This document shows positions 9,700-30,553 of a stretch of DNA of 64,000 bases, piece after piece (position 1 is the stretch's first letter; each line of letters opens with the position of its first letter). Origin of the DNA: a virus. Lineage: Duplodnaviria; Heunggongvirae; Uroviricota; Caudoviricetes. Location: the IMG/VR virus record IMGVR_UViG_3300031992_000063, positions 22,390-86,389 of that record; one strand, written 5' to 3'. The position numbers and the translations under genes were made by a program. Under the pieces are notes generated by a model. The model was given only the letters and a program-made list of their open reading frames with translations. It was not told the DNA's origin and made no database searches.

Positions 9700-9737
9700 A
9701 TGCCTAAAAGTTAAAAAGCTTTTAGGCATAATTTTTA
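9700..9737 (+). terminator. Rho-independent terminator
   Basis: ATGCCTAAAAG-TTAAAA-AGCTTTTAGGCAT followed by AATTTTT. Confidence 0.6.
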
Positions 9738-9752
9738 AGGAGGAAAAGGAGA

Positions 9753-10715: not shown

Positions 10716-10717
10716 TT

Positions 10718-10909: not shown

Positions 10910-10922
10910 GGAGGAATAATAT

Positions 10923-12845
10923 ATGGATATTATTGATGTAATGCTTGCGAAAGCATTGTCTCCGCAAGGATAGGTTGAATCTTATGCGCGGCAATCTGAA
11001 ACAGCAGTAGCCAATGCGAATAGCGCCGTTGCCGCCATTGATAGTATTACGCAACAGACCAATACAAACAATACAAAATCATAGGAAACTCTCGCGGCGG
11101 CAGAGCAAGCATTAGAGAATGCTTCTGCCGCAGAAGAGCGTATTCAAGCGGCGCTAGACTCAATTCAAGGTTCTTCTACAGAGCAAATTGATGAAGAAAT
11201 TGATAAAATTGCGTTAAGTCTTGCCGCGACTGCTAATGGCTCTAAATTGACGCTTACTACGCCCTCTGGCGCGAAAAAAGAAGTAGAAGGATGGGCAATG
11301 CCGCAACAGCAGCAGCAAACCTTGTATTCTACCACCGGTTCTCACACCGATGGCGCAATGACGCAGAAGGCAGTTACTGATGCCTTAACTTCTTTAGACA
11401 ATAAAATTAAAACCAGCGGTGGCACAAGTAGTGGTGGCGTCAGCAATCTCGGTACTGATGCCGCAGGGCGTATCGTAGTAGTTGGCGCAGATGGTAATAT
11501 CATTGCTGGTGATATCACCGAAGCCGCTATTGTTCAGGCGCTAATTAAAGCAGGTACATATACCGCAGATGGCACTCTTGGTCTTACTATTGACTATGAA
11601 AATAAATCTTTTGAGCGTACCCAAGATGCTATTGGTTTGCGCGCAGGAGAAAACTTTGATGGTTATGCTATGTATGGCGGCAGAATGCGTTGTAATGTAC
11701 GAGATGATGGTACAATCACTGCCTTCTATGGAGATTTAAATTATAAAGAAGATGGCTCTAATGGGCAGGTTATGATTTATCAACCCAAGTTCTATTACCA
11801 GCGTTCTTTTGTCAAGGAAACGCCATCAGCTCACGGAACTATTATTCGGCGCGAAAATCTTATACTTTCCGCGCAGGAGCGAGTAGGCTTCCAACTTCAT
11901 CCTTTGTTTAAATCTGGCGATGAAGAACTAGATTATGTATTACTTCCTGCTTATGAAGGTAGTGTATATGATGCTAGTGAAAGTGCCTATCTTCTAAATA
12001 ACGAAAGCACTGTGGATATCGCCCAAGACAAATTGAGTTCTATTGCCGGTGCGAAGCCTTTTAATGGCACACATATGTCCTTAACAGTAGATATGGTTAA
12101 AGCACTCGCCGCAAATCGCGGTGCTGGTTGGCAACTAACTAATGCCGAATCCGAGTCCGCTCTACAAATGCTAGAAACAGTTGAGTTCGGTTCTATGAAC
12201 GGACAAGCCGCATTAGAGAAAGGTCTTACAGAAATCAACCGTGCCAATTCAACAGATTGTAGCGCAATTACTGGTTCTACTTCAAGCTTAGGTAATACTA
12301 CTGGCGCGGCGGAATCCACTGTAATTGACCGCGATGGCACTAGAACAACCTCTTCTGTTGCCGGTTCTCGCGCAATTAGCTACCGTGGTATGGAAAATCC
12401 TTGGGGTGAAATGTGGAGACTTATTGGTAATGGAGAAATCCAGGGCAATGGAAATACTCTCGGCGGCGTTCCTTATATCAATGGTAACCCGCTTAATATT
12501 CACCTTCCTCACGCATCTTCTGCTTGGATTTCTGCTATGGGATATCAAAATCTTAAATACGATTGGATGTATCTTCCAATTGAATGTGCTACAAGCGCGA
12601 ATAGCGCAGTTCCAGTAGGCGATGCTCTCTGGACTACTCAAAATCTTAATGCTACTAACCTCTTAGCAGTTGGCGGTTCAATTAATGCGAATGATGCCGC
12701 AGGCCCATTCTATTATAGCGCTGACATCGGTATGACAAGTGAAATTCGTTATTTTAATGGGCGCATTATGTTTGTGCCAACAAAGAACTCCATTTATGAT
12801 GCTAATATCACTAAATGGCGCGCGCACTATAAGGAGGGACAGTAA
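10923..12845 (+). CDS. Receptor-binding tail protein (about 640 aa), 2 in-frame TAG near the N-terminus
   Basis: RBS AAGGAGGA followed by ATG 10923. It is in the same frame as ORF 11247..12845 and joined to it through TAG codons at about 10974 and 11082. Confidence 0.65.
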
Positions 12846-12846
12846 T

Positions 12847-13092
12847 ATGATAGATTATGGAAGACAGTTTGGCTTTGTTGAGCCGCAAGAAGTAGAATTT
12901 ACAGATACTTCTGTATTTGTTGCTTCTAATATTCAGCCTAAAAATAAAAATGTAGAAGACTTTCAAATTAATGGATACGAATATGACCTTGTACAATATA
13001 CAAAGGATGAATATTTAATGAAGCAAGCCAATAGTATTGCCGCCTTACAACAAGAACTCGCCGCGGCAAAGATATTATTGGGGGTGGAGTAA
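12847..13092 (+). CDS. Hypothetical small tail-associated protein (81 aa)
   Basis: ATG 1 nt after the upstream stop, with RBS AAGGAGGG. Confidence 0.5.
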   Translation: MIDYGRQFGFVEPQEVEFTDTSVFVASNIQPKNKNVEDFQINGYEYDLVQYTKDEYLMKQANSIAALQQELAAAKILLGVE

Positions 13093-13095
13093 TCA

Positions 13096-13506
13096 ATGAC
13101 TTTAATTGAACTCGCGCGCAAATTGCGCCCATATATAGAAAAAGCGGCTTTATCTTTATCAGATGAAGATGCGCTAGAAGCCGTTGATTTATTTCCCCGC
13201 TGGGATGTTAATCACGGCGAATATGTAAAAGATGATAAAGTGAGATTTGAGGGCGTATTATATAAATGTCTTCAACAGCATTTTCCATAGGCAGGTTGGG
13301 CGCCAACATTGGCACCAAGCCTATGGACGAAAGTACTTATTCCAGATGAAAATGTTATTCCTGAATGGGAGCAGCCCGATAGCACTAATCCTTATATGAA
13401 AGGCGATAAGGTAATGTTTGATGGGAAAGTATATGAAAGTGCTATTGATAATAATATTTGGTCGCCCACTGCTTATCCAGCCGGCTGGGCAGAGGTAAAT
13501 ATTTGA
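13096..13506 (+). CDS. Tandem CBM5/12-type carbohydrate (chitin)-binding domain protein (136 aa), 1 in-frame TAG
   Basis: ORFs 13096..13290 and 13309..13506 share a frame and are joined by TAG. Two repeats of the ChtBD3 pattern: ...VKDDKVRFEGVLYKCLQQHFP(TAG)AGWAPTLAPSLW... and ...YMKGDKVMFDGKVYESA...AGW. Confidence 0.65.
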
Positions 13507-13531
13507 CTTTTTCCTAAATTTATAATATAAT
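13503..13531 (+). promoter_or_regulatory. Consensus promoter (TTGACT-17-TATAAT)
   Basis: Promoter family member. The upstream gene's TGA stop lies inside AATATTTGACT. Confidence 0.55.
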
Positions 13532-13562
13532 AATTATACAATGAAGGAAAGGAGAAAAGAAT

Positions 13563-13844
13563 ATGAAGCAGAGAATTAATATTACAGTAGATGAAAATGA
13601 TGAAGTTGAGCGTCTATTTCTAACTTATAATTCATATATGAGTATGCTTCAATATCTTGCCAACACGGATATGGGCAGTACCCCCGTATATGATAAGAAA
13701 TGGAAAGAAGCATCAGACCTTTGGGTCCAATTGGATAAGAAAAAGCGCGAAATTGAACTTAAATACAAGCCCGCCGGAGACTGGGATAGTTATGAATTTG
13801 ATTTTGAAAATCAGCAGGTGGTGTTTGTAAAAGATGAGGCTTGA
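13563..13844 (+). CDS. Hypothetical protein (93 aa)
   Basis: ORF track entry. RBS GGAGA. Confidence 0.5.
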   Translation: MKQRINITVDENDEVERLFLTYNSYMSMLQYLANTDMGSTPVYDKKWKEASDLWVQLDKKKREIELKYKPAGDWDSYEFDFENQQVVFVKDEA

Positions 13845-15132
13845 TTTCTCCGATTAGATTATAAAGATGTATATGCGCGAAGACCCCGAAGCGACTTGTA
13901 GAAATATTACTTTTTAGGTAACGGATGATTGTTGCTTGAATTGTAGCTATTGCTATTAGACACACAAGGGTCATCGTATGATGAGTAAAGAAACCGCGAA
14001 AGAAATAGTAGATTTATTGTTTAAATTGTATGACGAAAACAATGAAGATACTGTCATAAATCATCATACATATGGTATTGTTTTGGACTTTATCGGCGGC
14101 GAACCATTTATGAATATTGATATCATATCTTTCGTTACTGAATACTTTATTCAGGAATGCGTTCGCCGCGACCATATTTGGCTTACTAATTTTCGTGTAT
14201 CTATGAGTTCCAATGGATTATTATATTTTGAGCCAAAAGTCTAGGAATACTTGCGTAAGTATAAAGACTTTGTTAGCTTAAATATAACAATTGATGGACC
14301 GAAAGAAATACATGATACTTGCCGCAAAGATTTTAGCGGCGAGGGTAGTTTTGATAGGTCAATAAAGGCATGGGAACATTGGTATCATGAGGTAAAGGTA
14401 AATATGCCAGATACAAAAGTAACGATTGCGCCCGAAAACCTATCCTAGCTTGAGTCAACATTTGATTTCTTTCTAGCCAATGGCTGTACTACTATTCACG
14501 CAAATCCAATCTTTGAGCATCCTTGGACTATTCGTGAGGCAAGTGAATATTATCATATATTAATTCGCCTTGCGGATAAACTATTAAAGGTTGAAGGCGC
14601 GGAAAGTTCCCTATTCTCCGACTTTAAAGGTAAGCCTTTGCCGCCAGAGGATACTAATAACTATTGCGGCGGCACTGCGGCAATGTTGGCTTTTGACCCA
14701 GATGGCAAAGCATATCCTTGCTTGCGCTATATGGCAAGTTCACTTTCACCAGAACGGGCGCCACTTGTAATTGGAGATACGCATGGAATATATAATACAC
14801 CAGAATACAAAGCAATATATGATGATATGAAGGCGGTAACGCGGCAATCGCAATCTTTACAAGAATGTTTAGATTGCCCTGTCGCATCCGGTTGTGCGTG
14901 GTGCTCGGCAGAAAACTACAATGAATTCGGCACCTATAACAAACGCTCTATTAACATATGTTGGATGCATCGCGCCGAAGCACTTGCGAATGTATATTAT
15001 TGGAATAAGTATTATAAATTACATAATATCAAAGATACATTCCCATTATATCTACCTAGAAATATAGCGGAAAAAATAATTACAAATCACGAATATAATG
15101 AGTTATATATATTATCACACTCTAATATTTGA
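13834..15132 (+). CDS. Radical SAM / SPASM-domain protein (anSME/peptide-maturase-like, about 432 aa) with 5 in-frame TAG
   Basis: ATG 13834 overlaps the upstream stop in an ATGA junction. Frame 1 is continuous through TAG at 13855, 13915, 13957, 14245 and 14446 to TGA at 15130-15132. CxxxCxxC = ...ITF(TAG)VTDDCCLNCSYCY(TAG)THKG. GGEP motif LDFIGGEPFMN. SPASM-like CGGTAAM...YPC and CLDCPVASGCAWCSAEN. Confidence 0.7.
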
Positions 15133-15157
15133 CTTTTGTAGAAATTTCTGCTATAAT
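15129..15157 (+). promoter_or_regulatory. Consensus promoter (TTGACT-17-TATAAT)
   Basis: Promoter family member. The rSAM gene's TGA stop lies inside AATATTTGACT. Confidence 0.55.
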
Positions 15158-15227
15158 ATATACAGAAAGTGGGTAAGGAACCAACTTTCTAAAAAATAAT
15201 TTTCATAACATAAGGAGGTTATGAGGT

Positions 15228-15566
15228 ATGAAGTATTATTCTGAAAAACTTCATAAGGTCTTTGACACCGTCGAAGCTTGTCAGCGTGCGGAGTTTGAAG
15301 AAAAGGAAAAGGAAAATCTTGAAAAAATCCAGAAGGAAAAGGCTCTAAGGGAAGCTAAGGAGCGCAAGGAAAAGGAAGCCGCAGAGCGTAAAGCTATGGC
15401 TGATAAGGTTGAGACTGCGCGCAAAGCTTATCTTGAAGCACAGAAAGCTTATAGGACTGAACTAGAAGCATTCTGCCAGAAGTATGGCACCTATCATTAT
15501 ACAGTGAGTGATGCCGATGAGGTTCCTTCTCTATTTGATGCTTTCAAGTATGCCTTTACTTGGTAA
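15228..15566 (+). CDS. Charged coiled-coil hypothetical protein (112 aa)
   Basis: ORF track entry. RBS AAGGAGG. Confidence 0.55.
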   Translation: MKYYSEKLHKVFDTVEACQRAEFEEKEKENLEKIQKEKALREAKERKEKEAAERKAMADKVETARKAYLEAQKAYRTELEAFCQKYGTYHYTVSDADEVPSLFDAFKYAFTW

Positions 15567-15605
15567 GTAAGGCTTAGGACTGAGCCTTATCAGTCCAACT
15601 TTCTT

Positions 15606-15694
15606 AGCCCCTTAGTTGAATGGCACAACAGCTGACTCTAAATCAGTAAGTGGGATTGACCCCGCGGGTGAGCGTTCGAGTCGCTCAGGGGCCG
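15606..15694 (+). tRNA. Candidate amber-suppressor tRNA, anticodon CUA (reads UAG); isotype undetermined
   Basis: Cloverleaf: AGCCCCT / TA / D stem GTTG-AATGGCA-CAAC / anticodon stem GCTGA, loop CTCTAAA (U33, CUA, A37), TCAGT / 22-nt variable region with GTGGG-ATTGAC-CCCGC helix / T arm GAGCG-TTCGAGT-CGCTC / AGGGGCC / G73. A1-C72 is unpaired. Confidence 0.6.
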
Positions 15695-15781
15695 CGTGGG
15701 AAGCGGACGGCTAGCTACCGAAACGAGATAAGGATGCCCTATCATCCAGCCAAATTTTATTTCTATAGGGAGGAATATAAA

Positions 15782-16450
15782 ATGACGGGATTTATCTATG
15801 TAATTACAAATGATGTAAATGGAAAGTAGTATGTTGGAAAAACTACTGATACTTTAGCCGGACGATTTAGTGACCATTGTAAAGATTCGGTTTTATCTAA
15901 ATGTAAAGGAAGACCTTTATATTATGCTATGAATAAATATGGGAAAGAACATTTTCATATTTCGTAGTTAGAAGAATGTGAACTAGATATTTTACCAGAA
16001 AGAGAATAGTTTTGGATAAAAGAATTAGATACTTATCATAATGGTTATAATGCCACTCTTGGAGGAGAAGGCAAGCAATATTATGATTATAATCTATTCG
16101 TTCAAGATTTTAATAATGGTATGAATATTAAAGAAATTGCTTAGAAATATCATTGTGGTACAGAAACAGTAAGCAAGGCTTTGCGAAAGGCGGGATTAGA
16201 TACTTTTCGCGGAAGTAAATATAATGCTCGTTCAAATAGGATTCCAATATTACAATTTTCGATGGATGATAATTTTTTACAGGAATTTGACTCAATTTGG
16301 ACAGCCGCTAAGTGGATAATGGAAAATCATTTTACCACCTCTACTAATCAAGGTCAAGTATAGAGTAATATTAGCGGAGCAGCGCGATAGATAGGATATA
16401 GAAAATCAGCATATGGATTTAAGTGGCGGCTAAAAGAAGAAGAAAATTAA
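15782..16450 (+). CDS. GIY-YIG homing endonuclease (I-TevI/Seg-like) with 6 in-frame TAG
   Basis: RBS GGGAGG followed by ATG 15782. GFIYVITNDVNGK(TAG)YVGKT...FHIS(TAG)LEECE...ERE(TAG)FWIKELDTYHNGYNATLGG, a C-terminal HTH (KEIA(TAG)KY...) and ...YGFKWRLKEEEN. Frame 2 is continuous to TAA at 16448-16450. Confidence 0.75.
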
Positions 16451-17847: not shown

Positions 17848-17921
17848 CGGGCACTAGCTCAGTTGGTGAGAGCATCGGTCTTATAAACCGGTGGTCCTTG
17901 GTTCGAATCCAAGGTGCCCGA
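17848..17921 (+). tRNA. tRNA-Ile(TAT), AUA-reading
   Basis: CGGGCAC acceptor, GCTC-AGTTGGTGA-GAGC, anticodon loop CTTATAA, CTTGG-TTCGAAT-CCAAG. Confidence 0.6.
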
Positions 17922-17927
17922 TTATAA

Positions 17928-18001
17928 TGGGGTGTAGCCAAGTAGGCGAAGGCACGAGACTTTGACTCTCGGATGCGTAGGTTCGAGCCCTACCACCCCA
18001 G
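17928..18001 (+). tRNA. tRNA-Gln(TTG)
   Basis: U1-A72, G73, anticodon loop CTTTGAC, GTAGG-TTCGAGC-CCTAC. Confidence 0.65.
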
Positions 18002-18006
18002 CTTAT

Positions 18007-18082
18007 GACCCCTTAGTCCAACCAGGCAGCAGACAATAGACTTAAAATCTATCAAGTATGGGTTCGAATCCCATAGGGGTTA
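18007..18082 (+). tRNA. Class-I-shaped tRNA with Leu-type anticodon TAA (reads UUA/UUG); A73
   Basis: GACCCCT acceptor, anticodon arm ATAGA-CTTAAAA-TCTAT, 5-nt variable loop, ATGGG-TTCGAAT-CCCAT. Confidence 0.45.
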
Positions 18083-18960
18083 CTTGTCATAGGCAGGGAA
18101 GCACGATACCCTGACGTGCCCGGGTCACGAAAGCTACTGTGTGCTAGTGGATATGACATCGGCTGAAAAACGAGAAGGCATGGGAAAATAGATTGGTAGT
18201 CCCGGGCAGTTATTAGGGTAACTCCCTAAACTGCAGAGGAAGCGGCTTCATCTACCGCTCTCGTCACATAGTGTAGGCCGTTAGTCTCGGAGAGACCGAG
18301 GATAAATAAGCGAGGCCGCTCTGTGAAGCGGGTTGCGACGAGCAACCTCCGTGGATACACGACCCACGTAAAAAAGGTGCCGCGCTGATAGACCGCAAGT
18401 TCGCAATAGTCTATCATCTGGAGCAATGACAGGACTTTATGCGTGAAACTAAGCTCCTCGGCATCCTCACCAATTTGAGGGGAGAAATCCAAAAAATGGG
18501 ATGGAACGCATACGCTGAGTAAAACTGCGTAACAAAAAGAGAAAGTAAGACGCTCAATAATGGTCTACAAGAAGCGCAAACTGTATGGCTTTGCATGTGC
18601 CAGATTGCTCGGCGCTTAATAAAAGAGGAGCAAAGTAAGTGCTAGTATTCCATAAAATGGGAATGAATGGTTCTCATTGCTAGCAATTCGCCCAATATAG
18701 CTCAAAGGCGAGAGCAACGTTCGCGGAGATGCAGTTCGAGTCTGCTGAGGGCTTCGCGCGAATATATCGGCAACTGATATAATGATTAACAAGAAGTTGC
18801 GGCCGTATCTCAGGGTCGTTCTGGGAAGAGGGAAAATATTAGTTTTGGGTTGTAGGTTCGACCCCTACTACACTGGGCAAAGCGCTCGGTGTAATCGAGA
18901 GGAATACCATAAAACTAATACGGCTTAGCTAGCCTGACCTCGGTCAGCTTGATAGCTACA
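18083..18960 (+). ncRNA. About 880-nt structured non-coding region (unidentified large RNA candidate)
   Basis: No ORF longer than 90 aa on the + strand; only spurious minus-strand ORFs. Dense local helices. An RNase P P4-like GUCCCGGGC at about 18199. A tRNA-like fragment (GCUCAAAGGCGAGAGC D arm plus GCAG-UUCGAGU-CUGC T arm) at about 18690-18750. A T-arm-like GUAGG-UUCGACC-CCUAC at about 18845. Confidence 0.3.
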
Positions 18961-18966
18961 AGTTGA

Positions 18967-19039
18967 CCTCTTTATAGCAGAATAGTGTAGAGGTCTAGCA
19001 CGATTGGTTCATATCCAATAGACATAGGTTCAAATCCTG
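18967..19039 (+). tRNA. tRNA-Met/Ile2(CAT)
   Basis: Anticodon loop TTCATAT, ATAGG-TTCAAAT-CCTGT. A1-A72 mismatch. Confidence 0.55.
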
Positions 19040-19158
19040 TTTCTGCAATCGGCTTCATAAATCATATGAACGCCTCCATAATAAATAAGAACTTTGGCCT
19101 TCTGTTCTCCTTTTAACAAAGGCTTGGGAAGGCACAATATTATACTGGATGTGATAAT

Positions 19159-19812
19159 ATGACATTTAATGTTACAGCTCAAGCTAATCTTGGCGTAGCC
19201 AATGTACAAATTCAGTATGATGGGTAGAAGCGATTAAAGTTGAGAATAATGTGCGGAAAAAAGTCTATATATTATGACCCCGTATCCAATATGGTAATAC
19301 CATTAACATTCGGAAATGGCACATATTCATTTCGACTGTATGAAAATACCATTGGTAATTCATATAAACTAATTGCTTCAAGGTCACGTTCTATTCATAT
19401 GAAGGATGTTAATGCCTATAAATTAAATGCTAACTATTTTGTTAATTTTGATGAAGCTTCCTCCTTCTTTCAAATTGCGAAAAAATTAAGAGATTGGACC
19501 GCAATTAAGAATTATATTAGTAATAATTTTAGATACGATTATATCAAAGCCTTAACTGCACCAAAATCTAAAAATCTAGTGCCTCCAGACTTAGAAAAAG
19601 TTTTTTCAGAGAAAAGTGGTATTTGTGACGGACTTGCGGCATTAACTGTAGCATTCGCGCGCATCTGCGGCATTCCTGCTACATTAGTAATGGGAAAGGC
19701 AGACAGAAATGCACATGCTTGGGTAAAAGTTGGCGATGAATTATTTGATCCTACTTATGTTATCCAACGGCGCAGAACAAAAATTAAATATGTAGAAGAA
19801 CGTGAGTATTAA
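19159..19812 (+). CDS. Transglutaminase-like cysteine peptidase domain protein (about 217 aa), 1 in-frame TAG
   Basis: ATG 19159 is in frame with ORF 19240..19812 through TAG at about 19225. Cys, His and Asp are present in GICDGLAAL...NAHAWVKVGDELFDPTYV. Confidence 0.5.
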
Positions 19813-19816
19813 TTAT

Positions 19817-19844
19817 TTGACTTTCTTACAAATTATGTTATAAT
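19817..19844 (+). promoter_or_regulatory. Consensus promoter (TTGACT-16-TGtTATAAT)
   Basis: Promoter family member, immediately upstream of the interrupted tRNA. Confidence 0.55.
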
Positions 19845-19864
19845 ATATTTGTAAGAAAGGGAAT

Positions 19865-20028
19865 GGCCCTATAGCTCAGTTGGTAGAGCATGCGGCTGGT
19901 CAGAATAGCCAAGTAGTAAGGCATACCATCCCAAGAGAATTATTCTCGTAAGAAGGTAATCGCAAGTGCAATTCTTGCTTCTGGCGCCATTAACCGCAGT
20001 GTCGTAGGTTCAAGTCCTACTGGGGCCG
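19865..20028 (+). tRNA. Interrupted tRNA: canonical acceptor, D, T and anticodon stems with an about 91-nt structured insertion in the anticodon loop; anticodon undetermined
   Basis: GGCCCTA / TA / GCTC-AGTTGGTA-GAGC / A / TGCGG [98 nt] CCGCA / GTGTC / GTAGG-TTCAAGT-CCTAC / TGGGGCC / G. The insert contains nested helices GAGAA-TTA-TTCTC and GCAAG-TGCAATT-CTTGC. Confidence 0.5.
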
Positions 20029-20075
20029 AACATCTTTCATCATCTTCAAACATCTTTTAACATCTTTCAATCACC
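20029..20075 (+). repeat. Four tandem copies of an 8-11 nt unit (ACATCTTTCA / CATCTTCAA / ACATCTTTTA / ACATCTTTCAA)
   Basis: Direct repeats between two tRNAs, followed by the hairpin GGCGC-GAGA-GCGCC. Confidence 0.5.
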
Positions 20076-20097
20076 TCTAGGCGCGAGAGCGCCACTT

Positions 20098-20169
20098 GGG
20101 CCTATCGTCCAATGGTTAGGACTCTAGACTGTTAATCTAGGTATCTTGGTTCGAATCCAAGTGGGCCCG
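20098..20169 (+). tRNA. tRNA-Asn(GTT)
   Basis: GGGCCTA acceptor, GTCC-AATGGTTA-GGAC, anticodon loop CTGTTAA, CTTGG-TTCGAAT-CCAAG. Confidence 0.7.
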
Positions 20170-20173
20170 CTTT

Positions 20174-20288
20174 AAAGACACATCAGCAACTCTTATTTGC
20201 TTCAGGAGCCCGTTAAGTGTTGGTCCAAATCCAGCCCGTCCTGCGTAGGACGGTAGCCCAATAGTAGAGGCGCGGTTATAAGTGTGTC
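20174..20288 (+). ncRNA. About 115-nt structured element closed by an 8-bp long-range stem (AAGACACA...TGTGTCTT)
   Basis: Contains the hairpin CCGTCC-TGCGTA-GGACGG. No canonical cloverleaf. Confidence 0.3.
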
Positions 20289-20296
20289 TTGTTCTT

Positions 20297-20369
20297 GGGT
20301 TGATAGTGATAATGGTTAGCACTTCTGCCTTGCAAGCAGAGAGTCAGGGTTCAATTCCCTGTCGATCCA
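20297..20369 (+). tRNA. tRNA-Ala(TGC)
   Basis: G3-U70 present, anticodon loop CTTGCAA, CAGGG-TTCAATT-CCCTG, A73. Confidence 0.65.
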
Positions 20370-20434
20370 CTTCGAAAGACATGACGGTCATTCGATATTT
20401 TTCAGCAGGGAACTGGAACCGCCCTGCTCCCCTT

Positions 20435-20506
20435 GACCTTATCGTATAATGGTTATTACGCTAGCTTGTCACGCTAGTAATCGCAGTTCAATTCTGCGTA
20501 AGGTCG
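20435..20506 (+). tRNA. tRNA-Asp(GTC)
   Basis: GACCTTA/TAAGGTC acceptor, anticodon loop TTGTCAC, CGCAG-TTCAATT-CTGCG, G73. Confidence 0.65.
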
Positions 20507-20517
20507 TTTGTCTTAGC

Positions 20518-21153
20518 ACGTAGACATTAAATATTCGTGTCGGCCCGGACTCTGTGACTGTAAACACAGGCAACCGTTAACACGGATTTAGCACTTCAAC
20601 TACCACTGGCGTGATTGGGAGGAGTGTTTATGGATGAACTTCCTAAACTATACTCCATAATCAAACGCGATATGTGGCTTGCGGAAAACGGTATATAAAG
20701 AAGCGAAGCAAAGTGCAGTTTCATCTTCAGCCAGAGATCTGGTGGCGTAAAGGCATCGTCGTAATTAGTATAAATGTTGCTCGGCAACCACGCAACCCGG
20801 CCGTGGGCAGAATAGCTGGGGTAAATTGAAGATGAAAATCCTCAGCTCATGTGCGTGCTACCCACGGGTAACACAATAGTCGTGAGTTGGATGGGACCGT
20901 ATTGCGGCAACGGTATATAAAGACGCATCGCATAAGCTCAGCTTGCCCGTTGGGATCTTAAGAGCGAGTAGCGAAAGTACTCAACAAAGAATGCTCCCAA
21001 CTCCGATTCTCCTAGACATGAGTGGTTGGATTACACGGTGAGAGTCCGTGATAAACACCAATAAAAGGTCTATTGCGCGCAAGGGTTTGTAGGTAGTTCC
21101 TCCTTCTGAGGGAAAAACCTTCTTATCTTACAATTATAAGGAGAATATAAGTA
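20518..21153 (+). ncRNA. About 635-nt non-coding structured region containing a duplicated about 35-nt motif
   Basis: No + strand ORF. TTGCGGaAAACGGTATATAAAGAaGC..CAG at about 20676 and TTGCGGcAACGGTATATAAAGAcGC..CAG at about 20905, about 228 nt apart. Confidence 0.3.
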
Positions 21154-21690
21154 ATGGACGCAAGACTTAAGATTCTACCACCTTGGACTATCGTTATTCG
21201 TAAGTTTGAGGCTCTATTTGACGGCGACCCACAGATTGCTTTTAATACAGATTTTTCCGGTTCTCACCCAACAGTTGTACTTGCCTGTAACAATGGCGAT
21301 AAAGTAAATGCTCTTTGCCAGATTTTGCCAGATGAAATTAAGTTTGGTAATGTTACACTAAAGGTTATGGTTGATGGTACTCCATCTAATCGTGTTTTCA
21401 CAAGTAAGGTTGAACTATTTAATACTGCTTTTAGCGGCAATCCTGCCTTTGCTTATGCCGTATGTCCTGCAGAAGAAGGCTATCAGTGGATTGGCACTAC
21501 CTATGTAGTATTTAACAACTGTGTAGTGCAGTTTGCCGCAGATAATCTAAATGACTGTCACGGCATTATTAGTACCTTATATGAAACTATTGCCGAAGAA
21601 CTTCTAACAGGCCCGGCAACAGAAGGCGTATTCTATAATACAAATGTAGAGCGCGCTAATCTTGGTAAGCCACTCGGTGAATGGCCGTAA
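21154..21690 (+). CDS. Hypothetical protein (178 aa)
   Basis: ORF track entry. RBS AAGGAG. Confidence 0.55.
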   Translation: MDARLKILPPWTIVIRKFEALFDGDPQIAFNTDFSGSHPTVVLACNNGDKVNALCQILPDEIKFGNVTLKVMVDGTPSNRVFTSKVELFNTAFSGNPAFAYAVCPAEEGYQWIGTTYVVFNNCVVQFAADNLNDCHGIISTLYETIAEELLTGPATEGVFYNTNVERANLGKPLGEWP

Positions 21691-22330
21691 ATTTAAAAAT
21701 AATGACACTTACAGCAACTTTTTGGAACAAGATTTTCTGTATAAAAATTTTATAAAGGTGTCATGATAGTTTAGACGCTTACAGCAACTATTTAATACAA
21801 TTTGTGCCATATTTTTACAAATAATATTGTGCGTCTAGATTTTTAGCCATTGCGAGGATAGTTGCCCGCAACATCCTACGTTTTATCATATGAAATGGCT
21901 CGCGCGATTGCTGACGGCAGTAGAGCGCGCGTTATAAATATCGGAACTTGCCGTTTCCTTGCCATACGGTGGTAGTTCCGTTCAAGGCAGAAAACCTGCG
22001 GTCCAGCTGGACGCGATGATGGCTAGTTTGGGGTTTTACGCCACGCTTTTAGGAAGCGCAACCCGCTAGAACGAGATTCTAGCACGCCTCTCCCTATCCC
22101 TATACGCCTCTTAACAATGCGCACCACATAGGGCATTCTGTTAGAGCCTTACACGCCTCTTAACAATGCGGACCAAGTAAGGACATTTAGTCTCGATTAG
22201 TAAAACTTGTATACCGGTTACCTCTAAGCTAAGTTACGAGTTATAGGCTTTAATAAATATAGGAGCAATGAGCGGCTACTTTGCTTAATATTCGGCCCGC
22301 TGACGAGCGTCTATGACAAATCCTATATTT
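21691..22330 (+). ncRNA. About 640-nt non-coding region with two pairs of direct repeats
   Basis: AC(A/G)CTTACAGCAACT(T/A)TTT at about 21705 and 21770. ACGCCTCTTAACAATGCG(C/G)ACCA at about 22105 and 22152. GC-rich hairpins such as CGCGCG...CGCGCG. Confidence 0.3.
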
Positions 22331-22332
22331 AT

Positions 22333-22411
22333 GCCCGAGTGGCGGAATGGCAGACGCGCCTGACTCAAAATCAGGTTCGTAAGAGTGTGGGTTCAAGTCC
22401 CACCCCGGGCA
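22333..22411 (+). tRNA. tRNA-Leu(CAA), class II
   Basis: Anticodon loop CTCAAAA, 11-nt variable arm, GTGGG-TTCAAGT-CCCAC, A73. Confidence 0.7.
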
Positions 22412-22429
22412 CTTTAAAGGAGTGATTAT

Positions 22430-22858
22430 ATGAAAATACTACGAATACTTTTGTTGGCTTTAATTTTTACCTTTATCCCAGTCGGTTCTGCCGCAGCAGC
22501 GCCATCAAGAACAACCGAAAATGCTATTGTTCTCTCGCCGGACTATTAGTTTGAAATAGCAGAAGAGAATGAAGAGTGGCCTGAAATTTTAGAACTCATA
22601 GACGAAACATCAGAAGAATATGAGTTAATTGAGGCTATTAAGGTTAATATTGATGTGCCATGTGAATGGCTATATGTAAAGCTCGTTTATCCGCTTACGA
22701 CAGAGCAAGAACCGTTTGTACTTATTGTTAATGATAATAAGGAAATTACTAAACAGGAAATTGGCTTTGATGAGGATGGACGAGCTTGTATTGATTTCAT
22801 TAACTATGATACTGGCGAATATTGGATTTGTTTTTATGTTCTAATCGCAGAATAAATT
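22430..22858 (+). CDS. Secreted small protein (signal peptide; about 142 aa), 1 in-frame TAG
   Basis: RBS AAAGGAG followed by ATG 22430, reading MKILRILLLALIFTFIPVGSAAAAPS... It is in frame with ORF 22655..22855 through TAG at about 22547 and ends TAA. Confidence 0.5.
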
Positions 22859-22860
22859 AT

Positions 22861-22888
22861 TTGACTTTTATAAAAAATATGTTATAAT
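22861..22888 (+). promoter_or_regulatory. Consensus promoter (TTGACT-16-TGtTATAAT)
   Basis: Promoter family member, upstream of tRNA-Thr. Confidence 0.55.
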
Positions 22889-22946
22889 ATAATTGTAATA
22901 AAGGGAAAGATAATATTTATGCTGGCCCGTGTGATGGCCAGTAAAT

Positions 22947-23018
22947 GCTCCTATCGTACAACGGCTAGTACTGCTGCCTTGTAAGCAGCAAATGGCGGTT
23001 CGAATCCGTCTGGGAGCT
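22947..23018 (+). tRNA. tRNA-Thr(TGT)
   Basis: Anticodon loop CTTGTAA, GGCGG-TTCGAAT-CCGTC. Confidence 0.65.
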
Positions 23019-23111
23019 TTGTAATTTAGGGAACAAGTTACCGTAAAAGACTTGCGCGCACAGCGGACCTGTAACGGGGAGAGGAGGTCGTAAATATCCC
23101 CTTTCCGCCAT

Positions 23112-23186
23112 GCGCCATTAGCACAGTGGTAATGCAGCTGACTCTTAATCAGCGAATTCTGGGTTCGAATCCCTGATGGCGCACCA
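23112..23186 (+). tRNA. tRNA-Lys(CTT) with encoded CCA
   Basis: GCGCCAT/ATGGCGC acceptor, anticodon loop CTCTTAA, TTCGAAT T loop, ACCA at the 3' end. Confidence 0.65.
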
Positions 23187-23399
23187 TTAAATGACAATAC
23201 ATTACCCTCTACACTGTGTAGAGATGGAGTGTGAGTCGCACCTACGGGGTGTCTGGGTCCTAATGTAGCACCAGATAGTAGGAGTTAATCGCCCTATAAG
23301 GCTCACTAAGTCATTCATTTTATATTATATGGAACTAATTCACTCAGAGTTCCTGCGGTTCAAGAGTGAGGCTTGCGGCGCCTTAGACCGCTATTATAT
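23187..23399 (+). ncRNA. Structured spacer with several hairpins, including an about 75-nt element closed by the GTGAGTC/GGCTCAC stem
   Basis: CTCTACA-CTG-TGTAGAG and GGAACT...AGTTCC hairpins. No cloverleaf. Confidence 0.2.
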
Positions 23400-23508
23400 G
23401 CGGTGGTATCCAAGTAGACAAAGGGGCCAGCCGGTAAGTCTGGTGCCTGCGCCGGTATGCTAGCTAAACCGTAGGCTTCGCAGGTGCAAATCCTGACCCG
23501 CCGCACCA
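23400..23508 (+). ncRNA. tRNA-like gene (106 nt plus encoded CCA) with tRNA acceptor, D and T arms but a non-canonical, enlarged anticodon/variable region
   Basis: GCGGTGG...CCGCCGC-A-CCA acceptor. D arm TCCA-AGTAGACAA-AGGG (tRNA-Gln-like). T-like arm GCAGG-TGCAAAT-CCTG. Internal helices GCCAG/CTGGT and GCCTGCG/CGTAGGC. Confidence 0.35.
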
Positions 23509-23511
23509 TAT

Positions 23512-23584
23512 GCCTCTGTAGCTCAGTTGGAAGAGCACGTCCTTGGTAAGGACGAGGTCCCGAGTTCAAGTCTCGGCGGCGGCT
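23512..23584 (+). tRNA. tRNA-Thr(GGT)
   Basis: GCTC-AGTTGGAA-GAGC, anticodon loop TTGGTAA, CCGAG-TTCAAGT-CTCGG. Confidence 0.6.
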
Positions 23585-23828
23585 TTGGGTACTATTCCCC
23601 TTCCAAAGAATAGTCGTAGGACTAAGCCGGGTGGAAAGAAATCCGTGGCACAATACCGGTGTATAACGTTAGACCCAGGTAGGTTAAGGTTGCAGGTATG
23701 GGAAAACTGCGTAAAATGAATGTCGCCTTATGTTAGTGCCTCATGCGTAGACGTGTCGCTTTAGCTCATCAAGATAGCAGAGGTGTGGTGTGGTAGACCA
23801 CAGGGATGGAACCCTAAATTTACTATAC

Positions 23829-23901
23829 GCTCCTGTAGCGCAGTTGGTAGCGCAACGGACTTTTAATCCGTGTGTCGTGGGTTCGATTCCCACCAGGGGC
23901 A
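23829..23901 (+). tRNA. tRNA-Lys(TTT)
   Basis: GCGC-AGTTGGTA-GCGC, anticodon loop CTTTTAA, GTGGG-TTCGATT-CCCAC. Coordinate cross-checked against ORF 23790. Confidence 0.7.
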
Positions 23902-24003
23902 CGATGCTCGTTAATAGGGACGAGTATGATGGGTTCGCGGCCATCATTCCTATTCGGTTATTTTTGGTACCGGTTTATACGTAAGCCAAAACTGGTACGG
24001 CCT

Positions 24004-24074
24004 AGGAGCATAGCGTAATGGTAGCGTATCGGTCTCCAAAACCGTTGGTCTAGGTTCGAATCCTAGTGCTCCTG
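24004..24074 (+). tRNA. tRNA-Trp(CCA)
   Basis: AGGAGCA/TGCTCCT acceptor, anticodon loop CTCCAAA, CTAGG-TTCGAAT-CCTAG. Confidence 0.6.
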
Positions 24075-24244
24075 TTATCTAGTACAACAGCATAGCGTAC
24101 CAGGGAGACCTCTTATTACAGGCTCGGTTAGCCACGAGTCCAAGGGTAAGATTGGAATTCGACCCACGCTTCCTGCGCTCCGAGGTTAGCCCGCGGCTGG
24201 TGGTGTGGCAACCATTTGGCTATGGGTATTAGCAGGAGCTAATA

Positions 24245-24273
24245 TTTGACAATTACTAAAATTATGTTATAAT
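24245..24273 (+). promoter_or_regulatory. Consensus promoter (TTGACA-17-TGtTATAAT)
   Basis: Promoter family member. Confidence 0.55.
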
Positions 24274-24307
24274 TTATTTGTAAGAAAGAAAGAAAGGGAA
24301 TTAAAGT

Positions 24308-24529
24308 ATGAGAATTACACCCTGTCCTAAATGTGGAAGAATTCCTAAAATTGTTGAGTGCTGTCGGGCAAAAAATGGAGCAAGACGTAGAATTGTTTTT
24401 TGCCCTAATCTCTGTATTATTTGTACTCCTCGTGTATATTACACTTCTTTTACCTTTATCGGTGACGGAGATGACAACGCTGTTTATAAACTGTGGAATG
24501 AGAAAGTGAGGGCAAGTAAGAATGCGTGA
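24308..24529 (+). CDS. Cys-rich small protein, possibly Lar-family restriction-alleviation-like (73 aa)
   Basis: CPKCG...C..C plus a C-terminal ...AVYKLWNEK resembling the Lar-family ...AWNRR tail. Confidence 0.35.
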   Translation: MRITPCPKCGRIPKIVECCRAKNGARRRIVFCPNLCIICTPRVYYTSFTFIGDGDDNAVYKLWNEKVRASKNA

Positions 24530-24725
24530 TCCCAATCGTATTGATAAGTTTTGTAATGAACTCGCGCAGCTCTGGCACAAGGTTCCAGATTGGCGTTTTG
24601 GTCAGCTTATGTGTAATCTTCTTGGAGAATATACGAGAGCCACGAAGAAAGACCCTTTCTTTCCAGAAGATAATGAACTAATGAATTTTTTCAAAAACTA
24701 CTTTAGGAGAGATACCGATGAATAA
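24522..24725 (+). CDS. Hypothetical protein (67 aa)
   Basis: ORF track entry, overlapping the upstream stop. Confidence 0.45.
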   Translation: MRDPNRIDKFCNELAQLWHKVPDWRFGQLMCNLLGEYTRATKKDPFFPEDNELMNFFKNYFRRDTDE

Positions 24726-24969
24726 TGAAGTAATTAATAGTATGGATGTTGATGAATTACGAAATTATGCGTTTCATCTTCAAGAACTTGATGACGCAAG
24801 ACGGCAGTATATTGGCGCCCAAAGGGATATGATTGATATCCTTCAACAGCTTTATAATTGCCAGCTATATCGTGATGATAGTAATGTGAAACTTAATTCT
24901 AAATTAGCCATTGTTCAACGACTCCAAGAAGAATTAACGACAAAATATTCAGAAAAGCCTGTGAAATAA
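24718..24969 (+). CDS. Hypothetical protein (83 aa)
   Basis: ORF track entry. Confidence 0.45.
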   Translation: MNNEVINSMDVDELRNYAFHLQELDDARRQYIGAQRDMIDILQQLYNCQLYRDDSNVKLNSKLAIVQRLQEELTTKYSEKPVK

Positions 24970-25186
24970 TAATGACCATTACAGAATCCACCTGATATGG
25001 CTGTGGCTACAAGGCGCGGAAAGGTGGCGGCAATCTCTAGCCCGAGCAAGTTGAAATGATATACACCCTTGGGATGAAATGCATCACTAATGTAAGAGTG
25101 AGATATCACGTGAGAACGTATAGATATATAATGTAGCCGTGCTCCCAGTGGCATGTACCGTAACGTTGGACACTGGGCAAGCTTGT

Positions 25187-25257
25187 AGGAAACTGGTGTA
25201 ATGGTAACACACCCGGCTCCAACCCGGCAGATTAGCGTTCAAGTCGTTAGTTTCCTG
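25187..25257 (+). tRNA. tRNA-Trp(CCA), second copy
   Basis: GTGT-AATGGTA-ACAC, anticodon loop CTCCAAC, TAGCG-TTCAAGT-CGTTA. Confidence 0.55.
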
Positions 25258-25331
25258 TTTTAAGACTCGTGCAGCAACACTATTATTTGTAATTGACTTT
25301 TAATCAATCCGACAGAACGAGTCTTGTATAT

Positions 25332-25405
25332 GCCCGAGTAATCGAATTGGCATAGATATCTGGCTTAGAACCAGAGTTTTGTGGGTTCAACTCCCTCCTC
25401 GGGTA
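25332..25405 (+). tRNA. Class-I-shaped tRNA with Leu-type anticodon TAG (reads CUA/CUG); A73; acceptor identical to tRNA-Leu(CAA)
   Basis: GCCCGAG acceptor, anticodon arm TCTGG-CTTAGAA-CCAGA, 5-nt variable loop (GTTTT), GTGGG-TTCAACT-CCCTC. Confidence 0.45.
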
Positions 25406-25424
25406 CTTAATTTGGAGGTTAAAT

Positions 25425-29460: not shown

Positions 29461-29991
29461 ATGGCAACTTTATATATTCTATGCGGTCCCAGCGGATGCG
29501 GAAAAACTACTTGGGCGTGGAAATTTATGGGCGATGACATAGATGTCCGTTATGTTTCCCGCGATGAAATTCGTTTTAGTATGCTTAAAGAAGATGAAGA
29601 TTATTTTGCTCACGAGAAGGAAGTGTTCCGTAAGTTCGTAGGAACAATCGCGCAGACGCTTATTGATGACTTTGATGTAATTGCCGATGCTACTCATCTT
29701 ACAGAGGCTTCACGCAAAAAGCTTATTCGCGCAATTGATGAATATATCACGGACTATTCCATTACCTATGTAGTATTTTATACTCCAATTCAAAAGTGCT
29801 ATGAGAATGACGCTACTAGAACTGGAATAAGATATGTAGGAGAGCAGGTAATTCAAGGAATGTTCCGTTCCTTCAAGGCGCCGACTCTTAAAGAAGATTC
29901 TCGCGCAATTAAGATTATTGAAGTTGGAGAAGGAAAAGAAGATTTTTCCTATTTGATTGAACCTTATAGAAAGGAGTATGAAGATGACTAA
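29461..29991 (+). CDS. P-loop kinase (polynucleotide kinase-like, 176 aa)
   Basis: Walker A LYILCGPSGCGKTT. Adjacent to the phosphoesterase, mirroring the T4 Pnk domain pair. Confidence 0.55.
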   Translation: MATLYILCGPSGCGKTTWAWKFMGDDIDVRYVSRDEIRFSMLKEDEDYFAHEKEVFRKFVGTIAQTLIDDFDVIADATHLTEASRKKLIRAIDEYITDYSITYVVFYTPIQKCYENDATRTGIRYVGEQVIQGMFRSFKAPTLKEDSRAIKIIEVGEGKEDFSYLIEPYRKEYEDD

Positions 29992-30553
29992 TATTTGGCT
30001 TACATCGGATTTACACCTAATGCACTCTAAGTCCTTCCTTTGGGAACCTCGCGGCTTTTCTTCTACGGAAGAAATGTGCGAAGCTATCGTAGAAAGATGG
30101 AATTCGGTTGTTGATAAAGGAGATTTGGTATATAACCTTGGTGATATTGCGCTTTCAGATACAGATGCGGCAATTCCTTATCTTCAGCGGCTTAATGGTT
30201 ATCAGGTATGGCTTAGGGGCAACCACGATACTGATAATCGTGTAAATAAAGTGCTTGACGCTTGCCCCAACATTCATCTTCTTGGCACGCCTGACACTTC
30301 CTATGCTACTGTAATTAAATCGGGTAAGTGGCATTTTTATCTTTCTCACTATCCTACTTATACTTGTAATAATGAGCCTTGGCGCAAGGTAGCAAATCTT
30401 TGCGGCCATAGTCATACGCAGGATAAATGGGCAGATTGGGATAAAATGTGCTACCATGTAGAAATGGACGCGCATAATTGTTATCCAGTAAATCTGGAAG
30501 AAATTAAAAATGACATTTACGAGAAGCGTATTCAAGAGCAGACAAATATTTGA
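29957..30553 (+). CDS. Calcineurin-like metallophosphoesterase (198 aa)
   Basis: DLHLMH, GDIA, GNHD and GHSH motifs. Confidence 0.65.
   Translation: MNLIERSMKMTNIWLTSDLHLMHSKSFLWEPRGFSSTEEMCEAIVERWNSVVDKGDLVYNLGDIALSDTDAAIPYLQRLNGYQVWLRGNHDTDNRVNKVLDACPNIHLLGTPDTSYATVIKSGKWHFYLSHYPTYTCNNEPWRKVANLCGHSHTQDKWADWDKMCYHVEMDAHNCYPVNLEEIKNDIYEKRIQEQTNI

What the first reader, a model, noticed from the sequence alone, without database searches (positions are those of the whole stretch)
18007..25405. Two class-I-shaped tRNAs carrying leucine anticodons (UAA and UAG)
The tRNAs at 18007-18082 (anticodon UAA) and 25332-25405 (anticodon UAG) have A73 and leucine-type anticodons but only 5-nt variable loops. 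Bacterial tRNA-Leu is always class II. The second shares its acceptor stem and T arm almost exactly with the bona fide class II tRNA-Leu(CAA) at 22333, so it looks like a Leu tRNA from which the variable hairpin has been deleted. If they are charged with Leu they supply UUA/CUA decoding for this AT-rich phage. If they are charged by another synthetase they would mis-read Leu codons.
Basis: seen in the sequence. Interest (0 to 1): 0.55.

Follow-up and report, generated by a model that had tools for sequence, protein, structure and literature searches.

The report
Phage leucine tRNAs lacking the long arm
The two genes are real leucine-type tRNAs that have lost the long variable arm, a form already sequenced in phage T5 and common in phage tRNA clusters, so the finding is correct but ordinary.

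Summary
They are cloverleaf tRNAs with 5-nt variable loops, A73 and anticodons UAA and UAG. Apart from the missing arm, they carry the bacterial tRNA-Leu body: U8-A14, A15-U48, G18G19 and a 3-bp D stem with a large D loop.

The form is not rare. The T5-like record AJ604531 annotates the same pair, tRNA-Leu reading CUA and UUA, each 77 nt with CCA. They share the D loop GAAUUGGCAUA and V loop GUUUU of the window's UAG tRNA, and a note says the UUA-reading tRNA given a CUA anticodon is an effective amber suppressor.

In viral contigs picked without reference to Leu, 20 of 77 unique tRNA-Leu genes have a short loop, against 1/29 Tyr and 1/44 Ser. In this phage's own family, all 32 Leu(UAG) genes are short. 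Orthologues show compensatory stem changes. Published work shows LeuRS does not strictly need the arm.

Most likely they are ordinary Leu-charged elongator tRNAs for UUA/UUG and CUA/CUN. Charging was not tested, and I found no support for misreading. This is a new member of a known kind and of low interest.

The parts
18007..18082 (+). tRNA-Leu(UAA) with a short variable loop. It has a 5-nt V loop (CAAGU), a 3-bp D stem, a 13-nt D loop, G1-U72 and A73. CCA is not encoded.
   Evidence: ARAGORN. Rfam 56.5 bits. An identical copy lies in the related contig L125/L372. It is 87.8% identical over 74 nt to the annotated tRNA-Leu of Lactobacillus phages Bacchae and LpeD.
25332..25405 (+). tRNA-Leu(UAG) with a short variable loop. 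It has a 5-nt V loop (GUUUU), D loop GAAUUGGCAUA, G1-U72, a U50-U64 mismatch and A73. CCA is not encoded.
   Evidence: ARAGORN. Rfam 55.9 bits. Orthologues in L125, L020 and L129, each lying near a tRNA-Trp gene as in the window, carry compensatory D-stem and anticodon-stem changes. It has the same D loop and V loop as T5-like tRNA-Leu1 and Leu2.
22333..22411 (+). tRNA-Leu(CAA) with a reduced variable region of 11 nt and an A6-C67 mismatch.
   Evidence: ARAGORN. Rfam 56.1 bits. Alignment A1. Orthologues with an 11-nt V region occur in the phage family.
17806..17834 (+). Promoter-like site TTGACA-17-TATAAT (12 of 12 matches). It lies 14 nt upstream of the tight cluster tRNA-Ile(UAU), tRNA-Gln(UUG), tRNA-Leu(UAA) at 17848-18083.
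   Evidence: Consensus scan. tRNA coordinates. That this site drives expression is inferred only.

Best explanation
Both genes encode functional elongator tRNAs of the short-variable-loop tRNA-Leu type carried by phages and mobile elements. They descend from ordinary class II tRNA-Leu through loss of the variable hairpin and keep the rest of the Leu body.

Inferred steps:
- They are transcribed from the phage tRNA array. The UAA gene sits in a three-tRNA cluster behind a consensus promoter.
- Host RNase P and 3' processing enzymes mature them, and the host adds CCA, which is not encoded.
- The host LeuRS charges them with leucine. That enzyme reads A73 and the D/T-loop core, not the anticodon, and does not strictly need the long arm.
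- They then decode UUA/UUG and CUA (possibly all CUN). Together with Leu(CAA) this could give the phage its own supply for all six Leu codons, if UAG reads all CUN.

Shown here: the gene structure, the Leu identity elements, family membership, conservation and covariation.

Inferred only: expression, leucylation and decoding. These rest on homology to the T5-like tRNAs and on published LeuRS biochemistry.
For: 1. Both are clean cloverleafs.

2. Leu identity elements are present. These are A73, U8-A14, A15-U48, G18G19, U54-U55-C56-A58, and A20a clearly in the UAG tRNA. A review lists these as the E. coli set and states that the long arm is not crucial (PMC9976931). Deleting the arm in A. aeolicus tRNA-Leu mainly lowers affinity (PMC2377443).

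3. Among the unique tRNAs from 132 loci, mostly viral contigs, the 158 short-V tRNA-Leu match the 54 long-V ones and differ from other class I tRNAs. A73 is 99% and 100% against 57%. U48 is 100% and 100% against 37%. A 17-nt D arm is 85% and 67% against 19%.

4. The D-loop body motifs go with Leu anticodons. The T5-type motif occurs in 170 of 4263 unique tRNAs, and 168 of those have one of the six Leu anticodons. The second motif gives 48 of 58. This fits charging that ignores the anticodon.

5. T5-like record AJ604531 annotates tRNA-Leu1 (CUA codon) and tRNA-Leu2 (UUA codon), each 77 nt with CCA. A note says Leu2 with a CUA anticodon is an effective amber suppressor, whereas Lys and Pro are not. 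Alignment shows the same D and V loops.

6. Orthologues show selection on structure. In L125 all 3 D-stem pairs are changed compensatorily. The 46-sequence alignment is 98% paired, with 19 of 20 pairs covarying. In 60 loci of this phage family, 32 of 32 Leu(UAG) genes are short.

7. TTA and CTA make up 37% and 16% of Leu codons.

8. S. coelicolor LeuRS leucylates a natural type I tRNA-Leu (PMC6614811).
Against: - No expression, processing or charging data exist for this phage, and the host is unknown.
- E. coli LeuRS did not charge the S. coelicolor type I tRNA-Leu(CAA). Acceptance of armless Leu tRNAs therefore depends on the enzyme and the tRNA.
- The UAA tRNA has one more nucleotide between A15 and G18 than the usual Leu D loop. 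In E. coli the placement of G18G19 matters.
- Folded alone, the UAG sequence prefers a non-cloverleaf minimum-energy structure.
- The UAG tRNA has a U50-U64 mismatch and A37 rather than G37.
- The covariation sets were pre-selected by ARAGORN, which favours paired stems.
Confidence: 0.85

Rival explanations
1. They are Leu-charged tRNAs, but the phage keeps them mainly as an anti-defence measure. They would replace host tRNA-Leu that is cleaved or depleted during infection. Loss of the arm, or the altered anticodon loop, would make them poor substrates for a host tRNA-targeting nuclease. This concerns why they are kept and overlaps with the best explanation.
For: - A healing-and-sealing gene set lies next to the array: an AAA_33 kinase at 29461-29991, a metallophosphoesterase at 29957-30553 and an RNA ligase at 34716-36092.
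- Homologues of the phosphoesterase and of the DUF2828 protein occur beside tRNA arrays in dozens of unrelated loci.
- P-SSM7 has its short Leu(UAA) next to a tRNA ligase gene.
- Published work proposes that phage tRNAs evade anticodon nucleases through anticodon-loop changes (PMC10264068). A recent abstract calls tRNA arrays putative anti-defence units (PMC12803027).
- Arm loss is specific to Leu. Ser and Tyr keep theirs.
Against: - I found no defence nuclease reported to recognise the Leu variable arm.
- The Leu-specific loss has a simpler explanation. SerRS needs the arm (PMC7609411; PMC9976931), whereas LeuRS does not, so loss is simply tolerated for Leu.
- Heavy use of TTA in late genes fits plain codon supply.
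Confidence: 0.3
2. They are charged by a synthetase other than LeuRS. UUA and CUA would then be partly or wholly read as another amino acid in phage proteins.
For: - The shape is class I.
- The phage already recodes TAG, so it does alter the code.
- The UAA tRNA shares A35, A36 and A73 with tRNA-Phe.
Against: - The bodies carry the Leu set and lack G3-U70 (Ala). Their anticodons do not match any other anticodon-reading system.
- The same body types occur with all six Leu anticodons and almost never with others.
- The T5-like homologue works as an amber suppressor after an anticodon swap, as expected for anticodon-independent charging.
- CTA codons align with Leu-majority columns at 4 of 5 positions, and TTA with L/I/V at 9 of 11 positions, in distant topoisomerase homologues. 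L is the top aligned residue in a second gene set.
Confidence: 0.03
3. They are decaying or non-functional tRNA gene copies that a gene finder still recognises.
For: - The UAG tRNA has a U50-U64 mismatch and G1-U72.
- Its minimum-energy fold is not the cloverleaf.
- tRNA content turns over quickly among relatives.
Against: - The U50-U64 pair and the whole T arm are conserved in the orthologues.
- Stems change by compensatory substitutions.
- G1-U72 is found in 39% of the short-V family.
- All 32 Leu(UAG) genes in the 60 related loci are short.
- A consensus promoter lies directly upstream of the UAA cluster.
Confidence: 0.05

Closest known systems
tRNA-Leu1 (CUA codon) and tRNA-Leu2 (UUA codon) of T5-like phages (T5, BF23, Salmonella phage 5; GenBank AJ604531)
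   Same: - The same pair of anticodons.
- The same length class (74 nt plus CCA), 3-bp D stem, D loop GAAUUGGCAUA, V loop GUUUU and A73 as the window's UAG tRNA.
- About 84% identity over 61 nt.
- They also sit in a large phage tRNA array.
   Different: - The T5 genes encode CCA and the window's do not.
- The window's UAA tRNA belongs to a second body type (CCAA..GGCAG D loop, CAAGU V loop). That type is shared with Lactobacillus phages Bacchae, LpeD and LP65 and with cyanophage P-SSM7.
- The host and the phage family differ.
Short-variable-loop tRNA-Leu(TAG) in bacterial tRNA gene arrays (mycobacterial clusters, PMC6582537; Acidobacteriota and other arrays found here)
   Same: - A Leu(UAG) with a short variable loop sits inside a dense tRNA array, while the housekeeping isoacceptor stays class II.
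- The same pattern match gave at least 120 hits in bacterial genome contigs, mostly in arrays of up to 31 tRNAs per 8 kb.
   Different: Those are on chromosomes, plasmids or MAG contigs rather than in a lytic-type phage genome. Their function is equally untested.
Streptomyces coelicolor type I tRNA-Leu(CAA) (Fan et al. 2019, PMC6614811)
   Same: It is a natural bacterial tRNA-Leu with a 5-nt variable loop. It coexists with class II isoacceptors and was shown to be leucylated by the single LeuRS.
   Different: - It is a chromosomal housekeeping gene.
- Its V loop is ACAGC (C48), not U48.
- In that system A73 is not the key determinant.
- E. coli LeuRS does not charge it.
Animal mitochondrial tRNA-Leu(UUR/CUN)
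   Same: A short variable loop, with Leu identity resting on A73 and A14.
   Different: Mitochondrial tRNAs have degenerate D and T loops and a dedicated LeuRS. The phage tRNAs keep canonical G18G19 and a UUCRANU T loop and must use a bacterial LeuRS.

Membership tests
Bacterial tRNA-Leu (LeuRS substrate, E. coli-type identity set) | Discriminator A73 | tested here: met
   A at 18082 and at 25405. A73 occurs in 99% of 158 short-V phage Leu tRNAs.
Bacterial tRNA-Leu (LeuRS substrate, E. coli-type identity set) | Tertiary core: U8-A14, the A15-U48 Levitt pair, and U54-U55-C56-A58 | tested here: met
   Both tRNAs have U8, A14, A15, U as the last V-loop base, and T loops UUCGAAU or UUCAACU. The element list comes from PMC9976931.
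Bacterial tRNA-Leu (LeuRS substrate, E. coli-type identity set) | G18G19 and A20a in the correct D-loop register, with a 3-bp D stem | tested here: inconclusive
   The UAG tRNA has D loop GAAUUGGCAUA, which from memory has the same register as E. coli tRNA-Leu, so the feature appears met. The UAA tRNA has CAACCAGGCAGCA, with one extra base before GG and one after. That register is shared with the Lactobacillus phage homologues, but its effect on LeuRS is unknown.
Bacterial tRNA-Leu (LeuRS substrate, E. coli-type identity set) | Long variable arm (class II shape) | tested here: not met
   Both have 5-nt V loops. The arm is a structural hallmark of the family. It is reported not to be an identity determinant for E. 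coli LeuRS.
Bacterial tRNA-Leu (LeuRS substrate, E. coli-type identity set) | Actual aminoacylation with leucine | not testable with these tools
   Only indirect evidence exists: the GenBank note on the T5-like Leu2 suppressor and the S. coelicolor biochemistry.
Phage and tRNA-array tRNA-Leu with a short variable loop (T5 type) | A Leu anticodon on a Leu-type D arm, with a 4-8 nt variable loop ending in U48 | tested here: met
   Both genes qualify. The family comprises 158 unique members in 132 loci, 20 of 77 tRNA-Leu in a sample chosen without reference to Leu, and most Leu genes in 60 related loci.
Phage and tRNA-array tRNA-Leu with a short variable loop (T5 type) | Sequence homology to annotated members | tested here: met
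   The UAG tRNA hits 344 phage records at roughly 80-86% identity with no length difference. The UAA tRNA hits 35 records, the best at 87.8%. The features under most of the listed hits are annotated tRNA-Leu; some records have no annotation there.
Suppressor or recoding tRNA (sense-codon reassignment) | Codons read by the tRNA align with a non-cognate amino acid in homologues | tested here: not met
   CTA aligns with L-majority columns at 4 of 5 positions and TTA with L/I/V at 9 of 11. L is the top aligned residue for both codons in a second set. The samples are small.

The most novel reading that the evidence does not exclude
Loss of the variable arm from tRNA-Leu may be a selected trait of phage and mobile-element tRNAs, not neutral erosion. 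It affects about a quarter of phage tRNA-Leu genes but almost no Ser or Tyr genes. It could let these tRNAs escape a host factor that recognises class II tRNA-Leu, such as a tRNA-targeting defence nuclease or toxin. It could also change how they compete for LeuRS during infection. I found no systematic description or test of this bias in the papers I could search.
Probability: 0.15. Interest if true: 0.55.

Novelty: new member of a known kind. Interest (0 to 1): 0.18.

Why it matters
For this window it matters little. The two genes are normal members of a phage tRNA-Leu type that has been in sequence databases since the T5-era tRNA region, and automated pipelines already annotate it as tRNA-Leu.

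The survey did give one general point. Armless tRNA-Leu is common in phage and mobile tRNA arrays: about 26% of tRNA-Leu in a sample chosen without reference to Leu, and nearly all Leu(UAG) genes in this phage family. Ser and Tyr keep their arms. Textbook statements that bacterial-system tRNA-Leu is always class II should therefore not be used to flag such genes as anomalies. The bias is what one expects if LeuRS, unlike SerRS, does not need the arm.

Tried and rejected
- Megablast of the 12-kb array against INPHARED phages found no match. The phage has no close cultured relative.
- Two UAA-specific pattern scans of viral contigs found only one contig, L125. Orthologue evidence for the UAA gene is therefore thin: an identical copy, plus cross-family homologues at 76-88%.
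- Single-sequence folding gave the cloverleaf for UAA. For UAG it gave a non-cloverleaf minimum-energy structure. I rejected that as evidence against function, because the comparative data support the cloverleaf.
- The codon-to-residue test used distant homologues. It showed no sign of reassignment, but with 5-11 positions per codon it cannot separate Leu from Ile or Val.
- I tried to read Larkin et al. 2002 (PMC115294), which is not held, and relied on the review instead.
- Searches for an explicit description of armless phage tRNA-Leu found only the mycobacterial array remark and the S. coelicolor paper. Papers on phage tRNAs and anticodon nucleases do not discuss the arm.
- I first took 30639-32132 for RtcB because of its PHROG label. 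Pfam shows it is a DUF2828/DUF7788 protein, so I corrected this.
- I did not settle which amino acid TAG encodes.


Full report
**What is there**

ARAGORN finds 19 tRNA genes on the + strand between 15.6 and 26.4 kb. They include tRNA-Leu(taa) at 18007-18083 and tRNA-Leu(tag) at 25332-25406.

Read directly from the sequence, both are 7/3/5/5-bp cloverleafs. Each has a 5-nt variable loop (CAAGU and GUUUU), G1-U72, A73 and no encoded CCA. At 76 and 74 nt they cannot hide a long arm.

It has only an 11-nt variable region. It shares the 5' acceptor strand with the UAG tRNA, and its T arm differs at two positions.

**Context**

The window is part of a large phage.
- Genes run on the + strand.
- Many late-type ORFs are open only if TAG is read as sense. 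Examples are 1-3675 with 19 in-frame TAGs and 38390-40426 with 19.
- A tRNA with anticodon CUA lies at 15606-15695.
- No cultured phage is a near match.
- One array-internal ORF (21154-21690) recovers 60 loci from contigs of up to about 190 kb in viral metagenome contigs. The topoisomerase subunit has thousands of metagenomic homologues, the best 120 at 79-99% identity.
- Next to the array lie a kinase (AAA_33), a metallophosphoesterase, a DUF2828/DUF7788 protein and an RNA ligase.
- Strong sigma-70-type promoter matches, all on the + strand, punctuate the array. One 12/12 site lies 14 nt upstream of the Ile(UAU)-Gln-Leu(UAA) cluster.

**Are they Leu tRNAs?**

The E. coli leucine identity set is A73, the A15-U48 Levitt pair, G18G19 and A20a in the D loop, and the D/T-loop tertiary pairs. 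The anticodon and the long arm are not crucial (review PMC9976931). In A. aeolicus, deleting the arm mainly lowers affinity (PMC2377443).

Both window tRNAs have U8, A14, A15, U48, G18G19, a canonical T loop and A73. The UAG tRNA's D loop, GAAUUGGCAUA, matches the register of the E. coli tRNA-Leu D loop as I recall it; I did not fetch the E. coli sequence. The UAA tRNA's D loop has one extra base on each side of GG, so its register is less certain.

I compared the unique tRNAs from 132 loci, mostly viral contigs:

| Feature | Short-V tRNA-Leu (158) | Long-V tRNA-Leu (54) | Other class I tRNAs |
|---|---|---|---|
| A73 | 99% | 100% | 57% |
| U48 | 100% | 100% | 37% |
| 17-nt D arm | 85% | 67% | 19% |

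The body types are also tied to the Leu codon boxes. Among 4263 unique tRNAs, the T5-type D-loop motif occurs 170 times, 168 of them with one of the six Leu anticodons. The second motif gives 48 of 58. One body carrying UAA, CAA, UAG, CAG, GAG and AAG anticodons is what anticodon-independent leucine identity predicts.

**Is the form unusual?**

No.
- Sensitive blastn of the UAG tRNA hits 344 phage records, mostly T5-like, at roughly 80-86% identity with no length difference. The UAA tRNA hits 35 records, including Lactobacillus, Pseudomonas, Enterococcus and cyanophage genomes. The features under most of the listed hits are annotated tRNA-Leu.
- The curated T5-like record AJ604531 lists tRNA-Leu1 (CUA codon) and tRNA-Leu2 (UUA codon), each 77 nt including CCA. 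A note says Leu2 given a CUA anticodon is an effective amber suppressor, whereas Lys and Pro are not. Alignment shows the same D loop and V loop as the window's UAG tRNA.
It reached the same limit in bacterial genome contigs. There the hits sit mostly in dense tRNA arrays.
- In viral contigs chosen through a tRNA-Met-like pattern, and so independently of Leu, 20 of 77 unique tRNA-Leu genes are short. The figures for Tyr and Ser are 1 of 29 and 1 of 44.

In this phage's own family the counts are:

| Anticodon | Short variable loop | Long variable arm |
|---|---|---|
| UAG | 32 | 0 |
| CAA | 34 | 11 |
| AAG | 14 | 4 |
| CAG | 5 | 0 |
| UAA | 5 | 28 |

The short UAA gene is therefore the less common state in the family.

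The literature has noted such tRNAs. A mycobacterial tRNA cluster encodes a tRNA-Leu(TAG) with a short variable loop (PMC6582537). S. coelicolor has a chromosomal type I tRNA-Leu(CAA) that its LeuRS charges (PMC6614811).

**Are the genes maintained?**

The closest contig (L125/L372) has an identical UAA gene. Its UAG orthologue has all three D-stem pairs changed compensatorily, changes in the anticodon stem, and an 8-nt rather than 5-nt variable loop. L020 and L129 give further orthologues, each lying near a tRNA-Trp gene as in the window. L127 carries a class II Leu(UAG) with the identical D loop, which links the two shapes.

On 46 UAG-type sequences the cloverleaf is 98% paired. Nineteen of 20 pairs show double changes, no shuffle reaches the observed covariation score, and slid registers drop to 35-49% paired. 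The caveat is that ARAGORN found these sequences, and it favours paired stems.

**Mechanism**

The best-supported reading is ordinary. The tRNAs are transcribed from the array, processed, given CCA by the host, charged by the host LeuRS, and used to read UUA/UUG and CUA (perhaps all CUN). The phage uses TTA for 37% of Leu codons, rising to 54% in TAG-containing late ORFs, and CTA for 16%. Expression, charging and decoding are inferred, not shown.

Reasons for caution:
- E. coli LeuRS did not charge the Streptomyces type I tRNA.
- The UAA D-loop register is atypical.
- The UAG sequence alone does not fold to the cloverleaf at minimum energy.

**Rivals**

- Misreading by another synthetase is poorly supported. 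No other identity set fits, the bodies go with Leu anticodons only, and TTA and CTA codons align with Leu or aliphatic columns in distant homologues. That last test is small.
- Pseudogenes are unlikely given the conservation and covariation.
- An anti-defence rationale is compatible with the neighbouring healing-and-sealing genes and with recent literature. It concerns why the tRNAs are kept, not what they are. The simplest reason the arm is lost only from Leu is that SerRS needs it and LeuRS does not.

**Verdict**

These are armless Leu tRNAs, very probably Leu-charged. The premise of rarity is wrong, so this is a new member of a known kind and of low interest.

Noticed in passing
window 19865-20028 (+): A tRNA gene matches Rfam at 51.6 bits and has a 91-nt insertion in the anticodon loop. 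Removing it gives an Asn(GUU)-like loop, CUGUUAA. The homologue in L125 (3265-3337) is uninterrupted. Other relatives show gaps of roughly 35-40 nt and about 465 nt between the two halves, so the insert varies in length across the family. It is too short for a typical group I intron, and how it is spliced is unknown.
   Followed up: partly
window 15606-15695 (+); TAG-rich ORFs at 1-16450, 38390-40426 and 44393-46572: TAG is read as sense in late-type genes. The likely suppressor tRNA(CUA) has a class II shape, with a variable arm of about 22 nt, an A1-C72 mismatch and G73. Relatives L125 and L020 also have long-arm CUA tRNAs with different bodies. Its nearest neighbours in my set are long-arm tRNA-Ile(UAU) and tRNA-Thr. 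Residues aligned to TAG positions are most often Q (7 of 27), which is inconclusive.
   Followed up: partly
window 29461-29991, 29957-30553, 30639-32132 and 34716-36092 (+): A kinase (AAA_33), a metallophosphoesterase, a DUF2828/DUF7788 protein (PHROG 'RNA-binding protein') and an RNA ligase lie just downstream of the tRNA array. This looks like an RNA healing-and-sealing set. Homologues of the phosphoesterase and the DUF2828 protein lie beside tRNA arrays in dozens of unrelated viral and bacterial loci.
   Followed up: partly
window 15162-15224 (+): A cow-rumen-4 RNA motif (RF02948) scores 63.8 bits. It sits directly behind an 11/12 promoter-like site (15129-15157) and upstream of a small ORF (15225-15566) that is conserved in L125 and L020.
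   Followed up: no
window 22098-22134 (+): A borderline match to the abiF RNA motif (RF03085), at 37.9 bits against a gathering score of 37, lies inside the tRNA array.
   Followed up: no
L133, L135, L160, L164, L166, L172 and viral loci such as L114, L105, L010: Many tRNA arrays encode a tRNA with anticodon UAU, called Ile, that is 91-95 nt long with a 21-27 nt variable arm. This is the reverse of the Leu case. The window's own Ile(UAU), at 17848-17921, is an ordinary 74-nt tRNA.
   Followed up: no
L133-L212 (bacterial genome contigs): Many Acidobacteriota (Terriglobia) contigs, some longer than 1 Mb, carry a conserved block Leu(tag, 77 nt) - Tyr - Ser - Ser - Leu(caa, 77-78 nt). It is sometimes part of arrays of up to 31 tRNAs. 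I did not determine whether these arrays are integrated mobile elements.
   Followed up: no
window 22333-22411 and relatives (L372-L431): Variable-region lengths of tRNA-Leu in this phage family are 5-8 nt and 11-20 nt. Orthologous UAG genes have 5 or 8 nt and CAA genes 5-20 nt. This suggests repeated shortening rather than a single deletion.
   Followed up: partly
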